Shown in pieces: positions 24,834 through 56,970 of a stretch of 59,747 nucleotides of DNA. A model generated the notes under the pieces. The model saw nothing but the letters and a program-made list of their open reading frames with translations. It did no database searches and was not told where the DNA came from. Position numbers and translations under genes: made by a program. How positions within the stretch are numbered: the first letter of the stretch is position 1; the number at the start of each line of letters is the position of its first letter. The DNA comes from Candidatus Moraniibacteriota bacterium (GTDB taxonomy: Bacteria; Patescibacteriota; Minisyncoccia; Moranbacterales; GCA-2747515), in NCBI GenBank assembly GCA_002747515.1, contig PDPP01000020.1, forward strand, positions 1 through 59,747, in the 5' to 3' direction.

Positions 24834-25916
24834 ATGATTTTTAACACGCTTAGACGTATTAAAGGAGCCATTAAAGGAAATAGAATTTTTTTGTGGACTT
24901 TTTACACTTCTATAGCATTCCTTATATGGTTTATATTGTTGGCTGTTGTTCATAGATTTTGTGAACAATCAGATTGGATTACGTCGTTTTGGATGGCATG
25001 GGAAACGATGACGACAGTAGGGTATGGTGATGCTCCTGCTGTGACTACTGCTGGTAGAATCAGTACGATGTTGTTTGGTTCAGTTGGTATTGTTATTATG
25101 AGTGCTTTGTTTGGCACTATAGTTGTGTTAGTTGAATCCTATGATGAAAGAAGGAGAAAAGGCATGAATAGAAATCCCTATAAAGACTGTACAATTATCA
25201 TACACTTTCCAGGCACTCAACGTTTGAGTGCGTATGTCAAAGAAACACGTGAAACGCGACCAGATACAAAGGTTTGTATTGTGGATAATAGTATAGAAGA
25301 ATTACCCATAGAAATTCAAAATCTTGGTGGTATCCACTTTGTGAAGGGGAGTATGCTGGATCAGAATACCCATTTCATGTCTCGCATACATGAAGCAAGC
25401 ACGGTCATTATATTTCCTCCAAAAACAAATAGCATCGATGCAGATGCGATGACGAGTACATTGGTAAAACTTGTTGAGGAAGAAGTCTATGAAAGTGTGC
25501 GGTTGATTCATGTTGTTTCTGATAAGAGTAACATGCGTTTGTTTAAAGGATCGCGATCTGTGCCAATTTTAGAGCATCTTGAAGTTCTTTCAATCGTGCA
25601 AGAAAATCAAGATCCTCATTCAGCTCCAATTGTAGAGAAGTTACTACGGAATTCTGATGGGGGCAATCCTAAAAGTGTAAAAGTCAAAAAATGTTTTGGC
25701 ATCACATGGCATGAATTACAAATTCGATTTGCACATGCTACAAGTAGATTAGGTGTGCAGGCAAATTTGCTAGCTTTGGTCAGTGATAATGAAATTTATT
25801 TATGTCCAGATGCAGATTATATTCTTGCTTTTGGTGATGAATTATCCATCATAGCTAAGAATGACTTTGCTTGGCCGCCTGTGGAAGACGCAATGTGTGC
25901 AGAAATTTTTGAATAA
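24834..25916 (+). CDS. Two-TM potassium channel with RCK-like domain
   Basis: TMTTVGYGD selectivity filter; cytoplasmic RCK-like region. Confidence 0.88.
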   Translation: MIFNTLRRIKGAIKGNRIFLWTFYTSIAFLIWFILLAVVHRFCEQSDWITSFWMAWETMTTVGYGDAPAVTTAGRISTMLFGSVGIVIMSALFGTIVVLVESYDERRRKGMNRNPYKDCTIIIHFPGTQRLSAYVKETRETRPDTKVCIVDNSIEELPIEIQNLGGIHFVKGSMLDQNTHFMSRIHEASTVIIFPPKTNSIDADAMTSTLVKLVEEEVYESVRLIHVVSDKSNMRLFKGSRSVPILEHLEVLSIVQENQDPHSAPIVEKLLRNSDGGNPKSVKVKKCFGITWHELQIRFAHATSRLGVQANLLALVSDNEIYLCPDADYILAFGDELSIIAKNDFAWPPVEDAMCAEIFE

Positions 25917-25935
25917 ATTTGCAAAGGAGGAAAAA

Positions 25936-26283
25936 ATGGCACATCCGATTTTTTGGGTAGGACTTGTTGCGATAAAGATTTTTGGAGCTTTTTCTCTTGG
26001 AAAAAAATATCATGTTTCTTCTATGGAAGATGCTCTTAGAGATGAAATGCGAGCACAAAATGTTCCGGAGGAATATATTGGAACAATTCTTCAGAACATT
26101 AGAAAGAAAATCAGTGATCAAAATGAACACGTGACTCCAGATTACTTTATCGATTTATTCTTGGAGGTGATTGATGAAAATGTGGCTCTGGCTACTGAGT
26201 GGTTAGATAAAACCATAGAATCAGCAAATCAAAAAATCGCAAAAACATTACGTCACATCGCAGATGTTTTTGATAAAAAGTAA
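25936..26283 (+). CDS. Hypothetical protein, last gene of the cluster
   Basis: AAGGAGG RBS before ATG 25936; terminator-like hairpin at about 26300-26336. Confidence 0.6.
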   Translation: MAHPIFWVGLVAIKIFGAFSLGKKYHVSSMEDALRDEMRAQNVPEEYIGTILQNIRKKISDQNEHVTPDYFIDLFLEVIDENVALATEWLDKTIESANQKIAKTLRHIADVFDKK

Positions 26284-26398
26284 TCAAAGCTTACTTTATA
26301 AGCGAGAAAGAAAAATTCTATCTCGCTTTTATTTTTCTAGGATGGTATTGATAGTGTCGAGGTAGGTATGTATTGTTTGTTTAACAAAAAATTTTTGT

Positions 26399-26427
26399 TT
26401 GACAAAAATATAAAAAATTAGTATAGT
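26399..26427 (+). promoter_or_regulatory. Sigma70-type promoter of the T-box/glyS transcript
   Basis: TTGACA (26399-26404), 17 bp spacer, TATAGT (26422-26427). Confidence 0.8.
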
Positions 26428-26432
26428 TCCTC

Positions 26433-26588
26433 TGCGGATGAGTGAGTAGTGGCGTACTCACAGGGAAACAATATGAGAGGTGTTTGAGAAAGAATTCTCA
26501 AAAATACAGGTGGAACCGCGGGTTCAAAAGACTCGTCCTGATAATTTTACTGTTTATGTGAAATGATGAGGATGGGTTTTTTATTTTT
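26433..26588 (+). ncRNA. T-box riboswitch (glycine), transcriptional, compact
   Basis: T-box AATACAGGTGGAACCGCG (26503-26520); antiterminator 3' strand CGTCCTG; terminator ACTCGTCCT...AGGATGGGT-TTTTT; upstream of glyS. Confidence 0.85.
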
Positions 26589-26603
26589 CAATATAAGAAA
26601 TAT

Positions 26604-26999
26604 ATGTCTAAAGAAAAATTAATTGATGCACTTGTGCGAAATATATGGGGAAGTTGGGATGAACTGTATACTGCAACAAGAAATTTGATAAATGTAGTAC
26701 ATGATAATCGTGAGATTGGAAGTAAGCAATTCAAAAATGCGCTTATAGGTAGTACACAATTATCTTCAGATGAATACATACTTGCGATAAAAGCAATTGA
26801 AAAATCTATTACGTACGTGAAGAAAAAAGAGGAAAATAAAGAGATATATAAACCAGAAGAGAAAAAACAGGAAAATTCATCTGAAAAAACACAAAAAGTT
26901 GTAACAAAAGAAATGATTCAAGATGCTAAATATATGGAACAAAGAGAGATGAAACGTGCAGGTGGAGAACAATCATATAATCGTACAATGTTTAAATAA
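26604..26999 (+). CDS. Hypothetical protein between the T-box and glyS
   Basis: 131-aa charged ORF ending 13 bp before the glyS ATG. Confidence 0.65.
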   Translation: MSKEKLIDALVRNIWGSWDELYTATRNLINVVHDNREIGSKQFKNALIGSTQLSSDEYILAIKAIEKSITYVKKKEENKEIYKPEEKKQENSSEKTQKVVTKEMIQDAKYMEQREMKRAGGEQSYNRTMFK

Positions 27000-27012
27000 T
27001 AATTATAAATAT

Positions 27013-28401
27013 ATGTCAGAAAAAAATAATGTGCTCATGGAAAATATTGTGAGTTTTGCAAAACGTCGGGGATTTGTATTTGCGTCAAGTGAAATTTATG
27101 GTGGTTTTGCTGCGGTGTATGATTTTGGTCCCTATGGTGCAGAATTAGCAAAAAATATTCGTGAAGCATGGTGGAAGGCAATGGTGCAAGAAAATGAAAA
27201 TATTGTTGGACTTGATAGTAGTATTTTTATGCATCCACGCATATGGGAAGCGTCAGGTCATGTGGGTGGATTTAGCGATCCACTTTCTGAATGTAAAAAT
27301 TGTCATGCACGTGTGCGTGTAGACCATCTTTTGGAGGATGCTGGTGTTTTTGCTGATGAAAAAATGTCTGAAGAAGAAATTAATGCATTACTTTCGGAAA
27401 ATGTAGATAAATTATCATGCCCAAAATGCGGAAAAAATGAATTTGCCAAGGCGAAGAATTTTAATTTACTTGTCCAATCAAATCTTGGAAACTTTACAGG
27501 TGATTGGACAAAGGAGCCAACATATTTACGAGGTGAAACATGTCAGGGTATTTATGTGAATTATAAAAACGTACTTAATTCAACACGTGTAAAGGTGCCA
27601 TTTGGCATTGCACAAATTGGAAAAGCATTTCGCAATGAAATTACTGCGAGACAATTCATTTTTCGTAAACGTGAATTTGAACAAATGGAGATGCAAATGT
27701 TTGTACATCCAGATGAGGCGAGTGATATCTATGAAAAGTGGCGTAAAAGGCGATGGCAATACTGTCTTGACTTGGGAATTCGAGAAGAAAATTTGCGGTG
27801 GCATGAACATGAAAATCTCGTATTTTATGCACGTGCTGCATGGGACATTGAATACAAATTTCCATTTGGTTTTAAAGAGTTAGAAGGAGTGCATGCGCGA
27901 GGTAATTATGATTTGACACAACATGCAAAGTTTTCTGGTAAAAAATTAGAGTATCGTAATCCACAAACAAATGAAACATTTGTACCACATGTTGTAGAAA
28001 CATCTGTTGGTGTGGATCGCACATTTCTTGCGGTGCTTACTGATGCTTATACAGAGGAGCAATTAGAAGATGGCAAAACACGTATAGTATTAAAATTACC
28101 AAAAAAGTTAGCTCCGGTGAAAGTTGCAATTTTTCCACTTCTTAAAAACAAGCCAGAGCTTGTAGAAAAAGCACGTGCTATTTATGATGAATTAAAGCAA
28201 ATTTATATGTGTGAGTTTGACGACAATGGAAATGTTGGTAAGCGGTATCGTCGTCAAGATGAGATTGGAACACCATATTGTATAACTGTGGATTTTGATA
28301 CGATTAAGAATGGTGAAGTGACTGTACGCAATCGTGATACAATGAAGCAGAAAAGGGTTGCAGTTGATGAATTAGAGGTTTTTCTTGCAAAAAATCTCTA
28401 A
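27013..28401 (+). CDS. glyS: Glycine--tRNA ligase (alpha2, eukaryote-like type)
   Basis: AKRRGFVF.SSEIYGG, YLRGETCQG, GKAFRNEI, REFEQME, GKRYRRQDEIGTPYC; start placed at ATG 27013. Confidence 0.97.
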   Translation: MSEKNNVLMENIVSFAKRRGFVFASSEIYGGFAAVYDFGPYGAELAKNIREAWWKAMVQENENIVGLDSSIFMHPRIWEASGHVGGFSDPLSECKNCHARVRVDHLLEDAGVFADEKMSEEEINALLSENVDKLSCPKCGKNEFAKAKNFNLLVQSNLGNFTGDWTKEPTYLRGETCQGIYVNYKNVLNSTRVKVPFGIAQIGKAFRNEITARQFIFRKREFEQMEMQMFVHPDEASDIYEKWRKRRWQYCLDLGIREENLRWHEHENLVFYARAAWDIEYKFPFGFKELEGVHARGNYDLTQHAKFSGKKLEYRNPQTNETFVPHVVETSVGVDRTFLAVLTDAYTEEQLEDGKTRIVLKLPKKLAPVKVAIFPLLKNKPELVEKARAIYDELKQIYMCEFDDNGNVGKRYRRQDEIGTPYCITVDFDTIKNGEVTVRNRDTMKQKRVAVDELEVFLAKNL

Positions 28402-56897: not shown

Positions 56898-56970
56898 GCG
56901 GGTGTCGTATAGTGGCTTATTATATCAGCCTTCCAAGCTGAGGACGAGGGTTCGATTCCCTTCACCCGCT
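56898..56970 (+). tRNA. tRNA-Gly(UCC), CCA not encoded
   Basis: Acceptor GCGGGTG/CACCCGC, anticodon arm TCAGC-CTTCCAA-GCTGA, T arm GAGGG-TTCGATT-CCCTT, U discriminator. Confidence 0.96.

What the first reader, a model, noticed from the sequence alone, without database searches (positions are those of the whole stretch)
26399..26590. Minimal glycine T-box riboswitch with an apparent ultrashort Stem I and no Stem II
Seen: only about 70 nt separate the predicted TSS (~26433) from the T-box sequence. They contain a perfect 7-bp helix GTGAGTA/TACTCAC (26442-26461) closing the loop GTGGCG, which displays the Gly codon GGC (26451-26453), and a Stem III-like hairpin TTTGAGAA-AGAA-TTCTCAAA. The bulge UGGA fits the U73 discriminator of tRNA-Gly, and a terminator follows. 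Established: canonical Stem I is about 100 nt with interdigitated T-loops; ultrashort Stem I is known from translational actinobacterial ileS T-boxes, which rely on Stem II. Inference: a transcriptional Gly T-box lacking both the elbow clamp and Stem II would be a new minimal architecture. Alternative: AGTAG...AGGGA...GGTG could be a remnant of a deleted canonical Stem I.
Basis: partly seen in the sequence, partly recalled or inferred. Interest (0 to 1): 0.75.

Follow-up and report, generated by a model that had tools for sequence, protein, structure and literature searches.

The report
Miniature glycine T-box riboswitch
The leader of the glycyl-tRNA synthetase operon of this ultrasmall (Moranbacteria, CPR) bacterium is a real tRNA-sensing T-box switch of only about 100 nucleotides that shows its glycine codon in the tip of a 7-base-pair hairpin and lacks both of the extra tRNA-gripping parts that studied T-boxes are thought to need.

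Summary
A near-consensus promoter (26399-26427) is followed by a perfect 7-bp hairpin (26442-26461) with the loop GUGGCG. Then come a 21-nt unstructured linker, Stem III (26483-26502), a canonical antiterminator with a UGGAACC bulge (26507-40), and a strong terminator with a U run.

Rfam's T-box model scores 46.7 bits against a cut-off of 93, because Stem I is missing. Downstream lie a small conserved ORF and the dimeric-type glycyl-tRNA synthetase gene.

Comparison settles it. I compared 41 synthetase-linked leaders from Moranbacteria and allies.
- A script found U-GGN in the loop of a short hairpin in 37 of 41.
- The hairpin covaries, with double changes at 7 of 7 pairs.
- All 41 carry a terminator arm plus a T run.
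- Linkers of 18-35 nt leave no room for Stem II.

The genome's tRNA-Gly(GCC) and tRNA-Gly(UCC) have U73, which matches the UGGA bulge.

I did not find that combination in the papers I could search. This scan has already noted such minimal glycine T-boxes in other CPR genomes. Function is inferred and has not been shown.

The parts
26399..26427 (+). Sigma-70-type promoter: TTGACA, 17 nt, TATAGT. The inferred transcription start is near 26434.
   Evidence: 11 of 12 matches. The start site is inferred, not observed. In the closest relatives L006 and L007 a TATAAT / TATATT box lies 5 nt before the hairpin.
26442..26461 (+). Ultrashort Stem I. It is a 7-bp helix (26442-48 with 26455-61) closing the hexaloop G-U-GGC-G (26449-54). 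The specifier GGC lies at 26451-53.
   Evidence: I9. Covariation in 11 near relatives: 88.3% of cells paired against 23-48% when partners are slid, 7 of 7 pairs with double changes, and 0 of 500 shuffles reaching the score. In the 41-leader alignment the helix is 88.1% paired.
26462..26482 (+). Single-stranded linker of 21 nt, ending in the purine string AGGUG just 5' of Stem III. There is no Stem II and no Stem IIA/B pseudoknot.
   Evidence: the linker folds at 0.0 kcal/mol, and linkers are 18-35 nt in the 38 well-aligned leaders. The RRRNG motif is as quoted in the TBDB paper PMC7778990 (passages).
26483..26502 (+). Stem III: an 8-bp helix with loop AGAA, followed by AA.
   Evidence: I7. RF00230 alignment. 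95.9% of cells paired and 8 of 8 pairs with double changes across 41 leaders (an alignment fitted to the model).
26507..26540 (+). Antiterminator. Helix A1 is CAGG / CCUG. The 7-nt T-box bulge UGGAACC spans 26511-17, and its UGGA pairs with the tRNA 3' end UCCA. Helix A2 is GCGGG / CUCGU.
   Evidence: alignment (high posterior probabilities). (helices 100% and 97.6% paired). U73 in all three tRNA-Gly genes of the genome.
26526..26588 (+). Intrinsic terminator. Its 5' arm reuses the 3' strand of the antiterminator (ACUCGUCCU, 26531-39) and pairs with AGGAUGGGU (26569-77). A U run follows at 26577-88.
   Evidence: dG -24.7, z -6.5. The same arm plus a T run is found in 41 of 41 leaders.
26604..26999 (+). 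First gene of the controlled operon: a 131-aa protein of unknown function.
   Evidence: No Pfam family. 30-45% identical ORFs sit between the T-box and glyS in L012, L025 and L094. The atlas gave no usable hit.
27013..28401 (+). Glycine-tRNA ligase, dimeric class II type (462 aa counted from the ATG at 27013).
   Evidence: tRNA-synt_2b 1.2e-14, HGTP_anticodon 1.1e-22. (77-85% identity to Moraniibacteriota GlyRS).

Best explanation
This is a glycine-specific T-box riboswitch that works by transcription attenuation, built on a minimal plan.

Proposed mechanism:
- RNA polymerase starts near 26434.
- The first structure to form is a 7-bp hairpin whose 6-nt end loop (G-U-GGC-G) displays the Gly codon GGC.
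- The anticodon of tRNA-Gly(GCC) pairs with that loop. The flanking U and G could extend the contact towards A37 and U33 of the tRNA.
- A 21-nt flexible linker leads to Stem III and the antiterminator.
- If the bound tRNA is uncharged, its 3' end UCCA pairs with UGGA in the bulge (26511-14). This locks the antiterminator, and transcription runs on into the 131-aa ORF and glyS.
- If the tRNA is charged, or absent, the more stable terminator (26526-88) forms and transcription stops.

There is no distal Stem I platform to stack on the tRNA elbow. There is also no Stem II or pseudoknot to buttress the codon-anticodon helix. The whole sensor from Stem I to the end of the antiterminator is 99 nt.

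Shown here: the sequence elements, their conservation and covariation, the gene context, and the fit to the genome's own tRNAs. Inferred: tRNA binding, the start site, and readthrough.
For: - T-box core: RF00230 matches at E = 2.8e-9. Stem III, the UGGAACC bulge and both antiterminator helices are aligned with high posterior probability.
- Competing terminator: dG -24.7, z -6.5, overlapping the antiterminator 3' strand.
- Comparative set: 41 GlyRS-linked leaders. These are the window, 22 of 80 GlyRS loci from genome contigs, and 18 non-duplicate loci from a sample of 151 genomes of the order.
  - A script finds U-GGN in a hairpin loop in 37 of 41.
  - A stem of at least 5 bp closes a 6-10-nt loop holding [U/G]GGNN in 34 of 41. 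The rate is 10.6% in 5000 random 60-mers of the genome and 19% in 4100 shuffles. For stems of at least 6 bp the figures are 27 of 41 against 4.9% and 8%.
- Stem I covariation: 11 near relatives aligned without gaps give 88.3% of cells paired (23-48% when slid), double changes at 7 of 7 pairs, and 0 of 500 shuffles reaching the score. The loop GUGG is invariant.
- Codon variation: the third codon base varies (GGC, GGA, GGU) while GG is kept, so every version still reads glycine.
- Matching tRNAs: the genome encodes two tRNA-Gly(GCC) genes and one tRNA-Gly(UCC) gene, all with discriminator U73, which is complementary to the A of UGGA.
- No Stem II: the linker is 21 nt in the window and 18-35 nt (median 24) in the 38 well-aligned leaders, mostly unfolded.
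  - The aspS and ileS T-boxes of the same genome do carry a Stem II with GAA...AGUA and a CGG..CCGUUA pseudoknot element.
- Terminator: the terminator arm plus a T run is present in 41 of 41.
- Promoter position: a promoter lies directly 5' of the hairpin in the window. In L006 and L007 I read a -10-like box by eye 5 nt before the stem.
Against: - There is no experimental evidence of any kind. No RNA run was listed, so the start site, termination and readthrough are all inferred.
- The published work I read argues that such a design should bind tRNA poorly.
  - The review PMC7583486 (passages) says transcriptional T-boxes generally require the long Stem I with the elbow-binding motif.
  - It also says truncated Stem I's barely bind tRNA without Stem II.
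- The RF00230 score is half the curated cut-off (46.7 against 93 bits).
- Infernal's own alignment lays model Stem I on the AT-rich promoter region and model Stem II on the hairpin.
- The alignment of 41 leaders was fitted to my model, so its pair counts lean towards the structure.
  - In 3 of 41 rows (L014, L027, L114) the model picked another hairpin.
- A few relatives (L027, L104, L109, L113) have an extra small hairpin in the linker.
- The base after the codon is a purine in only 32 of 41 by the script.
Confidence: 0.85

Rival explanations
1. It is a canonical T-box whose long Stem I lies upstream (26348-26440), as Infernal aligned it. The 7-bp hairpin would then be Stem II.
For: The cmscan alignment of RF00230 spans 26348-26543 with few flagged non-canonical pairs and puts model Stem II on 26442-26461. 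About 100 nt lie between the upstream gene's terminator (26297-26331) and the hairpin.
Against: - That stretch holds the 11-of-12 promoter and AT-rich inverted repeats (I2, I3, I6).
- The aligned positions carry no AG bulge, no distal-loop motif, no GAA S-turn, and no Gly codon at the specifier place.
- In L006 and L007 a -10-like box lies 5 nt before the hairpin.
- The hairpin loop, not any upstream element, keeps GGN in 37 of 41 leaders, and the hairpin covaries.
Confidence: 0.03
2. It is a decaying relic, or a tRNA-independent attenuator. The loss of Stem I would have left a leader that terminates constitutively or responds to something else.
For: The literature predicts weak tRNA binding for this design.
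Against: - The design is kept in 41 leaders from several families. Stem I, Stem III and helix A1 all show compensatory changes, and the UGGAACC bulge is nearly invariant (L025 reads UGGGACC).
- Each leader sits ahead of GlyRS.
- The codon stays glycine while its third base drifts.
- A constitutive terminator (dG -24.7) in front of the only GlyRS gene found by tblastn in the genome would be harmful. I saw only the window copy with the ORF search, and I did not run a dedicated GlyRS search of the whole genome.
Confidence: 0.05
3. It is a real glycine T-box, but it is not self-sufficient. A protein or a further RNA contact would replace the missing elbow and Stem II contacts. Candidates include a factor that binds the K-turn-like remnant, the co-transcribed 131-aa protein, or the semi-conserved ACAAU(U)AU stretch of the linker.
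For: - Published binding data say a truncated Stem I alone is not enough (PMC7583486, passages).
- The linker of the 11 near relatives shares an ACAAU-like stretch, read by eye.
- A small conserved ORF is co-transcribed in some relatives.
Against: - No candidate was identified. The ORF is absent from many leaders of the class; for example, in L006 the T-box lies about 115 nt from GlyRS.
- The linker is poorly conserved across the 41 leaders.
- GGC:GCC is an all-G-C helix, which the literature holds sufficient to dispense with Stem II.
Confidence: 0.3
4. The specifier is UGG (Trp), which is the invariant triplet in the loop, rather than GGN.
For: U-G-G is the most conserved part of the loop, while the next base varies.
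Against: - The genome's tRNA-Trp has G73, which does not match UGGA, while all tRNA-Gly genes have U73.
- The downstream gene is GlyRS in all 41 leaders.
- L113 has AGGGCA with no U.
- Under the Trp reading, the base after the codon would be C in most leaders rather than a purine.
Confidence: 0.02

Closest known systems
Glycine (glyQS / glyS) T-box riboswitches of Bacilli (B. subtilis, G. kaustophilus, O. iheyensis, S. aureus), Rfam RF00230
   Same: Both use a Gly specifier (GGC) and a UGGA bulge for U73. Neither has Stem II or the IIA/B pseudoknot, and a single-stranded linker joins Stem I to Stem III. Both have a Stem III flanked by purines and a competing antiterminator and terminator, both act on transcription, and both sit ahead of a glycyl-tRNA synthetase gene.
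   Different: - The studied ones have a Stem I of about 100 nt with a K-turn, an internal specifier loop with an S-turn, an AG bulge and a distal loop. These stack on the tRNA elbow and are reported as essential for function (PMC7583486, PMC11404447; passages).
- Here Stem I is a 20-nt hairpin with the codon in the end loop, preceded by a conserved U.
- The sensor core is 99 nt. The B. subtilis glyQS RNA used for the cryo-EM complex is 169 nt (Table 1 of PMC12990946).
Ultrashort (US) Stem I translational ileS T-boxes of Actinobacteria (Mycobacterium, Nocardia)
   Same: Stem I is reduced to a short helix with the specifier in its terminal loop, there is no elbow-binding platform, and the discriminator domain is canonical (passages of 10.1101/2023.02.28.530422 and PMC12990946).
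   Different: - Those are described as all ileS, and they act on translation through a sequestrator.
- They depend on Stem II and the IIA/B pseudoknot to hold the anticodon.
- Here the amino acid is glycine, the expression platform is a terminator, and Stem II and the pseudoknot are absent.
- I could not read Sherwood 2015 or Battaglia 2019 (not held), so details of their loops are not compared.
aspS and ileS T-boxes of the same genome (C39:62858 and C2:37492)
   Same: Both show the same kind of Stem I. It is a short hairpin with a hexaloop of the form N-U-codon-R (UUGACA for Asp, AUAUCA for Ile, GUGGCG for Gly), followed by terminator-like U runs.
   Different: They keep a Stem II with GAA...AGUA and the CGG...CCGUUA pseudoknot element. 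The glycine leader has only a 21-nt linker at that place.

Membership tests
T-box leader (Rfam RF00230) | Antiterminator with a 7-nt bulge UGGNACC between helices A1 and A2 | tested here: met
   UGGAACC at 26511-17, flanked by CAGG/CCUG and GCGGG/CUCGU. The helices are 100% and 97.6% paired in 41 leaders.
T-box leader (Rfam RF00230) | Mutually exclusive terminator that reuses the 3' strand of the antiterminator, followed by a U run | tested here: met
   26526-88, dG -24.7, z -6.5. Found in 41 of 41 leaders.
T-box leader (Rfam RF00230) | Stem III with 5' purine string (RRRNG) and 3' AA | tested here: met
   AGGUG, then 26483-26502, then AA. The motif is as quoted in PMC7778990.
T-box leader (Rfam RF00230) | Specifier codon matching the amino acid of the regulated gene, and a bulge N matching the tRNA discriminator | tested here: met
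   GGC at 26451-53. GlyRS lies downstream. tRNA-Gly(GCC) is present twice and carries U73.
T-box leader (Rfam RF00230) | Long Stem I with K-turn, internal specifier loop with S-turn, AG bulge and distal loop | tested here: not met
   Only a 7-bp hairpin is present. Model Stem I was laid on the promoter with no motif matches, and the hairpin has no complementary lower helix for a K-turn.
T-box leader (Rfam RF00230) | Score at or above the curated gathering threshold (93 bits) | tested here: not met
   46.7 bits. It is not listed at the gathering threshold.
T-box leader (Rfam RF00230) | Readthrough induced by uncharged cognate tRNA | not testable with these tools
   This needs in vitro transcription or a reporter assay. 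No RNA run was listed.
Ultrashort-Stem-I (class II, translational ileS) T-boxes | Specifier in the terminal loop of a short Stem I, with no elbow platform | tested here: met
Ultrashort-Stem-I (class II, translational ileS) T-boxes | Stem II with S-turn, plus Stem IIA/B pseudoknot | tested here: not met
   The 21-nt linker folds at 0.0 kcal/mol. RF00230 positions for IIA/B are deleted in the alignment.
Ultrashort-Stem-I (class II, translational ileS) T-boxes | Sequestrator that hides the ribosome-binding site; ileS as the regulated gene | tested here: not met
   A terminator with a U run is present instead, and the regulated genes are ORF131 and GlyRS.

The most novel reading that the evidence does not exclude
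A natural tRNA sensor of about 100 nt makes a co-transcriptional decision using only two short base-paired contacts. One is a loop-loop 'kiss' between the tRNA anticodon loop and a hairpin loop that looks like an anticodon loop itself (N-U-NNN-R, possibly 5 pairs including A37 and U33). The other is the 4-bp contact with the tRNA 3' end. No elbow platform, Stem II or protein helper would be involved. This would overturn the view that transcriptional T-boxes need the elbow contact, and that a truncated Stem I needs Stem II. It would also define the smallest working T-box, widespread in CPR bacteria and invisible to Rfam's threshold.
Probability: 0.45. Interest if true: 0.85.

Novelty: new variant of a known kind. 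Interest (0 to 1): 0.7.

Why it matters
T-boxes are the model for RNA-RNA recognition by riboswitches. Three architectures are described in what I could read:
- long Stem I plus Stem II;
- long Stem I without Stem II (glycine);
- ultrashort Stem I with Stem II (translational ileS).

This leader and its 40 relatives fill the fourth, supposedly non-viable, combination, and they join it to a terminator.

If it works unaided, several things follow.
- It gives a lower bound of about 100 nt for a specific tRNA and aminoacylation sensor.
- It offers a compact part for engineering.
- It provides a test of how much the elbow contact and Stem II really contribute to binding speed.

It also exposes an annotation gap. 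In a sample of 151 Patescibacteria genomes, 51 had an RF00230 match, but only 5 had one above the curated cut-off.

Tried and rejected
- The Rfam scan at the gathering threshold gave only a tRNA in the window. The T-box appears only with the E-value threshold.
- RNAalifold on a plain MAFFT alignment of 12 leaders recovered only the antiterminator, because Stem I and Stem III were misaligned. I then built a covariance model with a hand-given structure and re-aligned.
- My first hairpin script picked wrong hairpins in about 9 leaders, so I tightened it. still mis-picks L014, L016, L106 and L114 by my reading.
- My first terminator script scored only 30 of 39, because it stopped at T runs inside terminator loops. 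I replaced it with a direct search for the complementary arm plus a T run.
- Expression: no RNA holder was listed for 26300-27300, and read laying was not used.
- Isoacceptor check:
  - All four genomes with a GGA specifier (G113, G019, G063, G121) have tRNA-Gly(UCC).
  - tRNA-Gly(GCC) was seen only in G113 and G121, and not in the GGC-type G099.
  - The query was the UCC gene and the genomes are incomplete, so nothing follows from this.
- The 131-aa ORF has no Pfam family and no usable atlas hit.
- A 5-bp pairing of CCUCU (26429-33) with AGAGG (26478-82) was rejected. It lies before the likely start and is not kept in relatives.
- An 8-bp pairing of GGAUGAGU (26436-43) with ACUCGUCC (26531-38) appears in one fold. 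It is not kept in L007 or L091, so it is probably a by-product of conserved motifs.
- Literature:
  - Sherwood 2015 (PMC4313828) and Battaglia 2019 (PMC6953718) are not held.
  - Searches found no paper that joins T-boxes with Patescibacteria, CPR, Parcubacteria or Moranbacteria, or that describes a glycine T-box with an ultrashort Stem I.
  - Subscription journals and supplements of bioRxiv preprints were not searchable.

Full report
**What is there.** The window is contig C30 of a 1.08-Mb, 99.8%-complete genome. Its GlyRS is 77-85% identical to that of Candidatus Moraniibacteriota MAGs (CPR/Patescibacteria).

Between a gene of unknown function that ends at 26283 and an ORF that starts at 26604, the sequence reads as follows:
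- an inverted repeat with a T run that looks like the upstream gene's terminator (26297-26331);
- an AT-rich spacer;
- a promoter, TTGACA-17-TATAGT (26399-26427, 11 of 12 matches);
- a perfect 7-bp hairpin, GUGAGUA/UACUCAC (26442-48 / 26455-61), with loop GUGGCG (26449-54);
- 21 nt with no predicted structure;
- Stem III, UUUGAGAA-AGAA-UUCUCAAA (26483-26502);
- the antiterminator CAGG-UGGAACC-GCGGG...CUCGU-CCUG (26507-40);
- a terminator whose 5' arm reuses ACUCGUCCU, at dG -24.7 kcal/mol and z -6.5, followed by UUUUUUAUUUUU.

Downstream lie a 131-aa ORF with no Pfam family and a 462-aa class II glycine-tRNA ligase.

**Rfam.** At the curated threshold the window shows only a tRNA. With the E-value threshold, RF00230 matches 26348-26543 at 46.7 bits (cut-off 93), E = 2.8e-9. 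The 3' half (Stem III, T-box bulge, antiterminator) aligns with high confidence. The model's Stem I is stretched over the AT-rich promoter, without the AG bulge, distal loop, S-turn or a Gly codon at the specifier place. The 7-bp hairpin is laid on model Stem II, and the IIA/B positions are deleted. So the T-box core is real, while Infernal's reading of the 5' half is a forced fit.

**The same genome.** RF00230 finds three more sub-threshold T-boxes.
- One sits ahead of an aspS-like gene (C39). My reading of that gene from its first residues is recalled, not tested.
- One sits ahead of an ileS-like gene (C2), read the same way.

In all three, model Stem I is deleted down to a small hairpin with a 6-nt loop: UUGACA (GAC, Asp), AUAUCA (AUC, Ile) and UUAUCA. 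The glycine loop GUGGCG has the same form, N-U-codon-purine. The Asp and Ile leaders keep a Stem II (GAA...AGUA) and the CGG...CCGUUA element. The glycine leader has only a linker there. An ultrashort Stem I is therefore the habit of this genome, and the glycine leader is its most reduced member.

**The tRNAs.** The genome encodes two tRNA-Gly(GCC) genes and one tRNA-Gly(UCC) gene (the latter in the window at 56898). All three have U73, which is complementary to the A of UGGA. tRNA-Trp has G73. The inner five loop bases, U-GGC-G, are complementary to positions 33-37 of tRNA-Gly(GCC), with one G-U pair. The same holds for the Asp and Ile loops and their tRNAs. This is my inference. It is partly trivial, because U33 is universal and A37 is common.

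**Relatives.** I assembled the comparison set in two steps.
- Of 80 GlyRS loci from genome contigs, 22 carry a T-box within 1.5 kb upstream. A motif search and my covariance model R1 found the same 22. One further motif hit, in L019, lies in coding sequence and was dropped.
- R1 matched in 40 of 151 sampled genomes of the order, including all 8 other genomes of the genus. These counts include non-glycine T-boxes.
  - Of the 30 loci returned, 25 have GlyRS next to the match.
  - Seven of those 25 duplicate earlier loci or the window, which leaves 18 new ones.

The set is thus 41 leaders including the window.

None shows a long Stem I, and L014 looks intermediate. The results on the set were:
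- A script finds U-GGN in a hairpin loop in 37 of 41.
  - By eye, L016, L106 and L114 also have UUGGC in a G-C-closed loop that the script passed over.
  - L113 has AGGGCA, and L014 is unclear.
- Codons by script are GGC 23, GGA 12, GGG 4 and GGU 2. By my reading they are about 27 GGC, 11 GGA, 1 GGU and 1 GGG or GGA, with 1 unclear.
- Stems of at least 5 bp around such a loop occur in 34 of 41, against 10.6% of random genome 60-mers and 19% of shuffles. Stems of at least 6 bp occur in 27 of 41, against 4.9% and 8%.

**Covariation.** Eleven near relatives share the 6-nt loop and align without gaps.
- 88.3% of cells pair, against 23-48% when partners are slid.
- All 7 pairs show changes on both sides.
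- 0 of 500 shuffles reach the covariation score.
- L025 is out of register and counts against the structure.

On the 41-leader alignment, which was fitted to the model and so leans towards the structure, the helices behave as follows:

| Helix | Cells paired | Pairs with double changes |
|---|---|---|
| Stem I | 88.1% | 7 of 7 |
| Stem III | 95.9% | 8 of 8 |
| Antiterminator A1 | 100% | 3 of 4 |
| Antiterminator A2 | 97.6% | 1 of 5 |

In 3 of 41 rows (L014, L027, L114) the model chose another hairpin.

**No Stem II; transcriptional.**
- In the 38 well-aligned rows the linker from Stem I to Stem III is 18-35 nt (median 24 over all 41 rows). It is mostly unfolded.
- L012, L109 and L113 have a small hairpin in the linker at about -4.5 kcal/mol, and L027 has an extra hairpin.
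- The median core from Stem I to the end of the antiterminator is 103 nt, and the window's core is 99 nt.
- All 41 have the complement of the antiterminator 3' strand followed by a T run.
- Several have an extra hairpin inserted in the antiterminator loop.

**Two sub-forms.** One group of leaders (L005, L008, L016, L028, L042, L114 and others) keeps a K-turn-like base (..GA-stem...stem-GGAG..) under a loop with UUGGA or UUGGC. The window's group has lost the lower helix and keeps only GAUGA and AGGGA around the hairpin. It does not rescue a canonical Stem I today.

**Literature.**
- The review PMC7583486 (passages) makes three relevant points.
[quoted passage not shown] - Glycine T-boxes can lack Stem II because GGC:GCC is a strong helix.
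- PMC11404447 (passages) says all characterised glycyl T-boxes but one lack Stem II, and it describes Stem I as about 100 nt.
- The preprint 10.1101/2023.02.28.530422 (passages) defines the ultrashort class as having the specifier in the terminal loop, and says all its members regulate ileS.
- The TBDB paper PMC7778990 (passages) searched its class II model only in Actinobacteria and in class I hits with a truncated Stem I.
- I found no paper joining T-boxes with CPR lineages, and none describing a glycine T-box with an ultrashort Stem I.
- Sherwood 2015 and Battaglia 2019 were not available.

**This scan's own notes.** Searches show that minimal glycine T-boxes were already noted in other CPR genomes (e1-1145288, e1-1578237, e1-2046577, e1-1313673, e1-1101130). 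Ultrashort-Stem-I T-boxes with terminators were noted for Trp, Pro, Ile, Val and Ser. These are unchecked AI notes. They agree with what I found here, but they are not independent evidence.

**Breadth.** In an even sample of 151 Patescibacteria genomes, 51 have an RF00230 match at E <= 0.001, and only 5 have one above the cut-off. Most CPR T-boxes therefore escape standard annotation, probably because of a reduced Stem I. I did not inspect those hits one by one.

**Verdict.** The element is a member of the T-box kind by its discriminator domain, specifier logic and gene context. It fails the Stem I features and Rfam's threshold. It also fails two of three features of the ultrashort ileS class. 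It is best called a new variant: a transcriptional glycine T-box with an ultrashort Stem I and no Stem II.

How it binds tRNA fast and tightly enough is open. I put about 0.45 on the bare RNA being sufficient and about 0.3 on a helper. All functional statements are inferences from sequence.

Noticed in passing
G000:C39:62858-63026 (L001 1501-1669) and G000:C2:37492-37671 (L002 1501-1680): These are the aspS-like and ileS-like T-box leaders of the same genome. Both have an ultrashort Stem I hairpin with hexaloops UUGACA and AUAUCA, but with Stem II and the pseudoknot element kept and terminator-like U runs. This is another combination (ultrashort Stem I plus terminator) that the papers I read do not describe.
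   Followed up: partly
G000:C2:28487-28639 (L004 1501-1653): A decayed paralogue of the ileS leader (26.5 bits; bulge UGGC; loop UUAUCA) with no clear ORF behind it. The stretch after it resembles the start of ileS. The earlier scan note e1-1055229 describes the same element.
   Followed up: partly
window 26604-26999: A 131-aa ORF sits between the T-box and glyS. It has no Pfam family. ORFs 30-45% identical lie at the same place in L012, L025 and L094, and near GlyRS in L018, L036, L022 and L057. It looks like a conserved unknown protein co-regulated with GlyRS in part of the lineage.
   Followed up: partly
L098, L099, L101, L110, L111 (around position 1470-1600 of each; L110 around 740-870): A different small T-box class found in relatives of the order. 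It has a short hairpin followed by a conserved ACUAAGCC-like stretch and a bulge reading UGGA, with no GlyRS in the locus. The specifier and the regulated gene were not worked out.
   Followed up: no
L005, L008, L013, L025, L090, L091, L105, L112, L114 (antiterminator loop): Extra hairpins of 40-90 nt are inserted in the loop of antiterminator helix A2 in some glycine leaders. They recall the lineage-specific insertions reported for staphylococcal glyS T-boxes (PMC9177973, abstract only).
   Followed up: no
window 26372-26409: AT-rich nested inverted repeats (for example TTTGTTTAACAAAAA / TTTTTGTTTGACAAA) overlap the -35 box of the leader promoter. They could be an operator or a chance product of AT richness.
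   Followed up: no
window 26436-26443 and 26531-26538: GGAUGAGU at the 5' end of the leader can pair with ACUCGUCC, the shared strand of antiterminator and terminator (MFE). The pairing is not kept in L007 or L091.
   Followed up: partly
window 26297-26338: A terminator-like hairpin with a T run (TATAAGCGAGAAAGAA / TTCTATCTCGCTTTTA) lies just after the upstream gene (25861-26283). It bounds the space available for the leader.
   Followed up: no
Patescibacteria sample: Only 5 of the 51 genomes with an RF00230 match have one above the curated cut-off. T-boxes of this radiation are therefore largely missed by standard Rfam annotation.
   Followed up: partly
window 24834-25916: A 360-aa protein with an Ion_trans_2 (potassium-channel-like) domain lies two genes upstream. 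It is unrelated to the finding.
   Followed up: no
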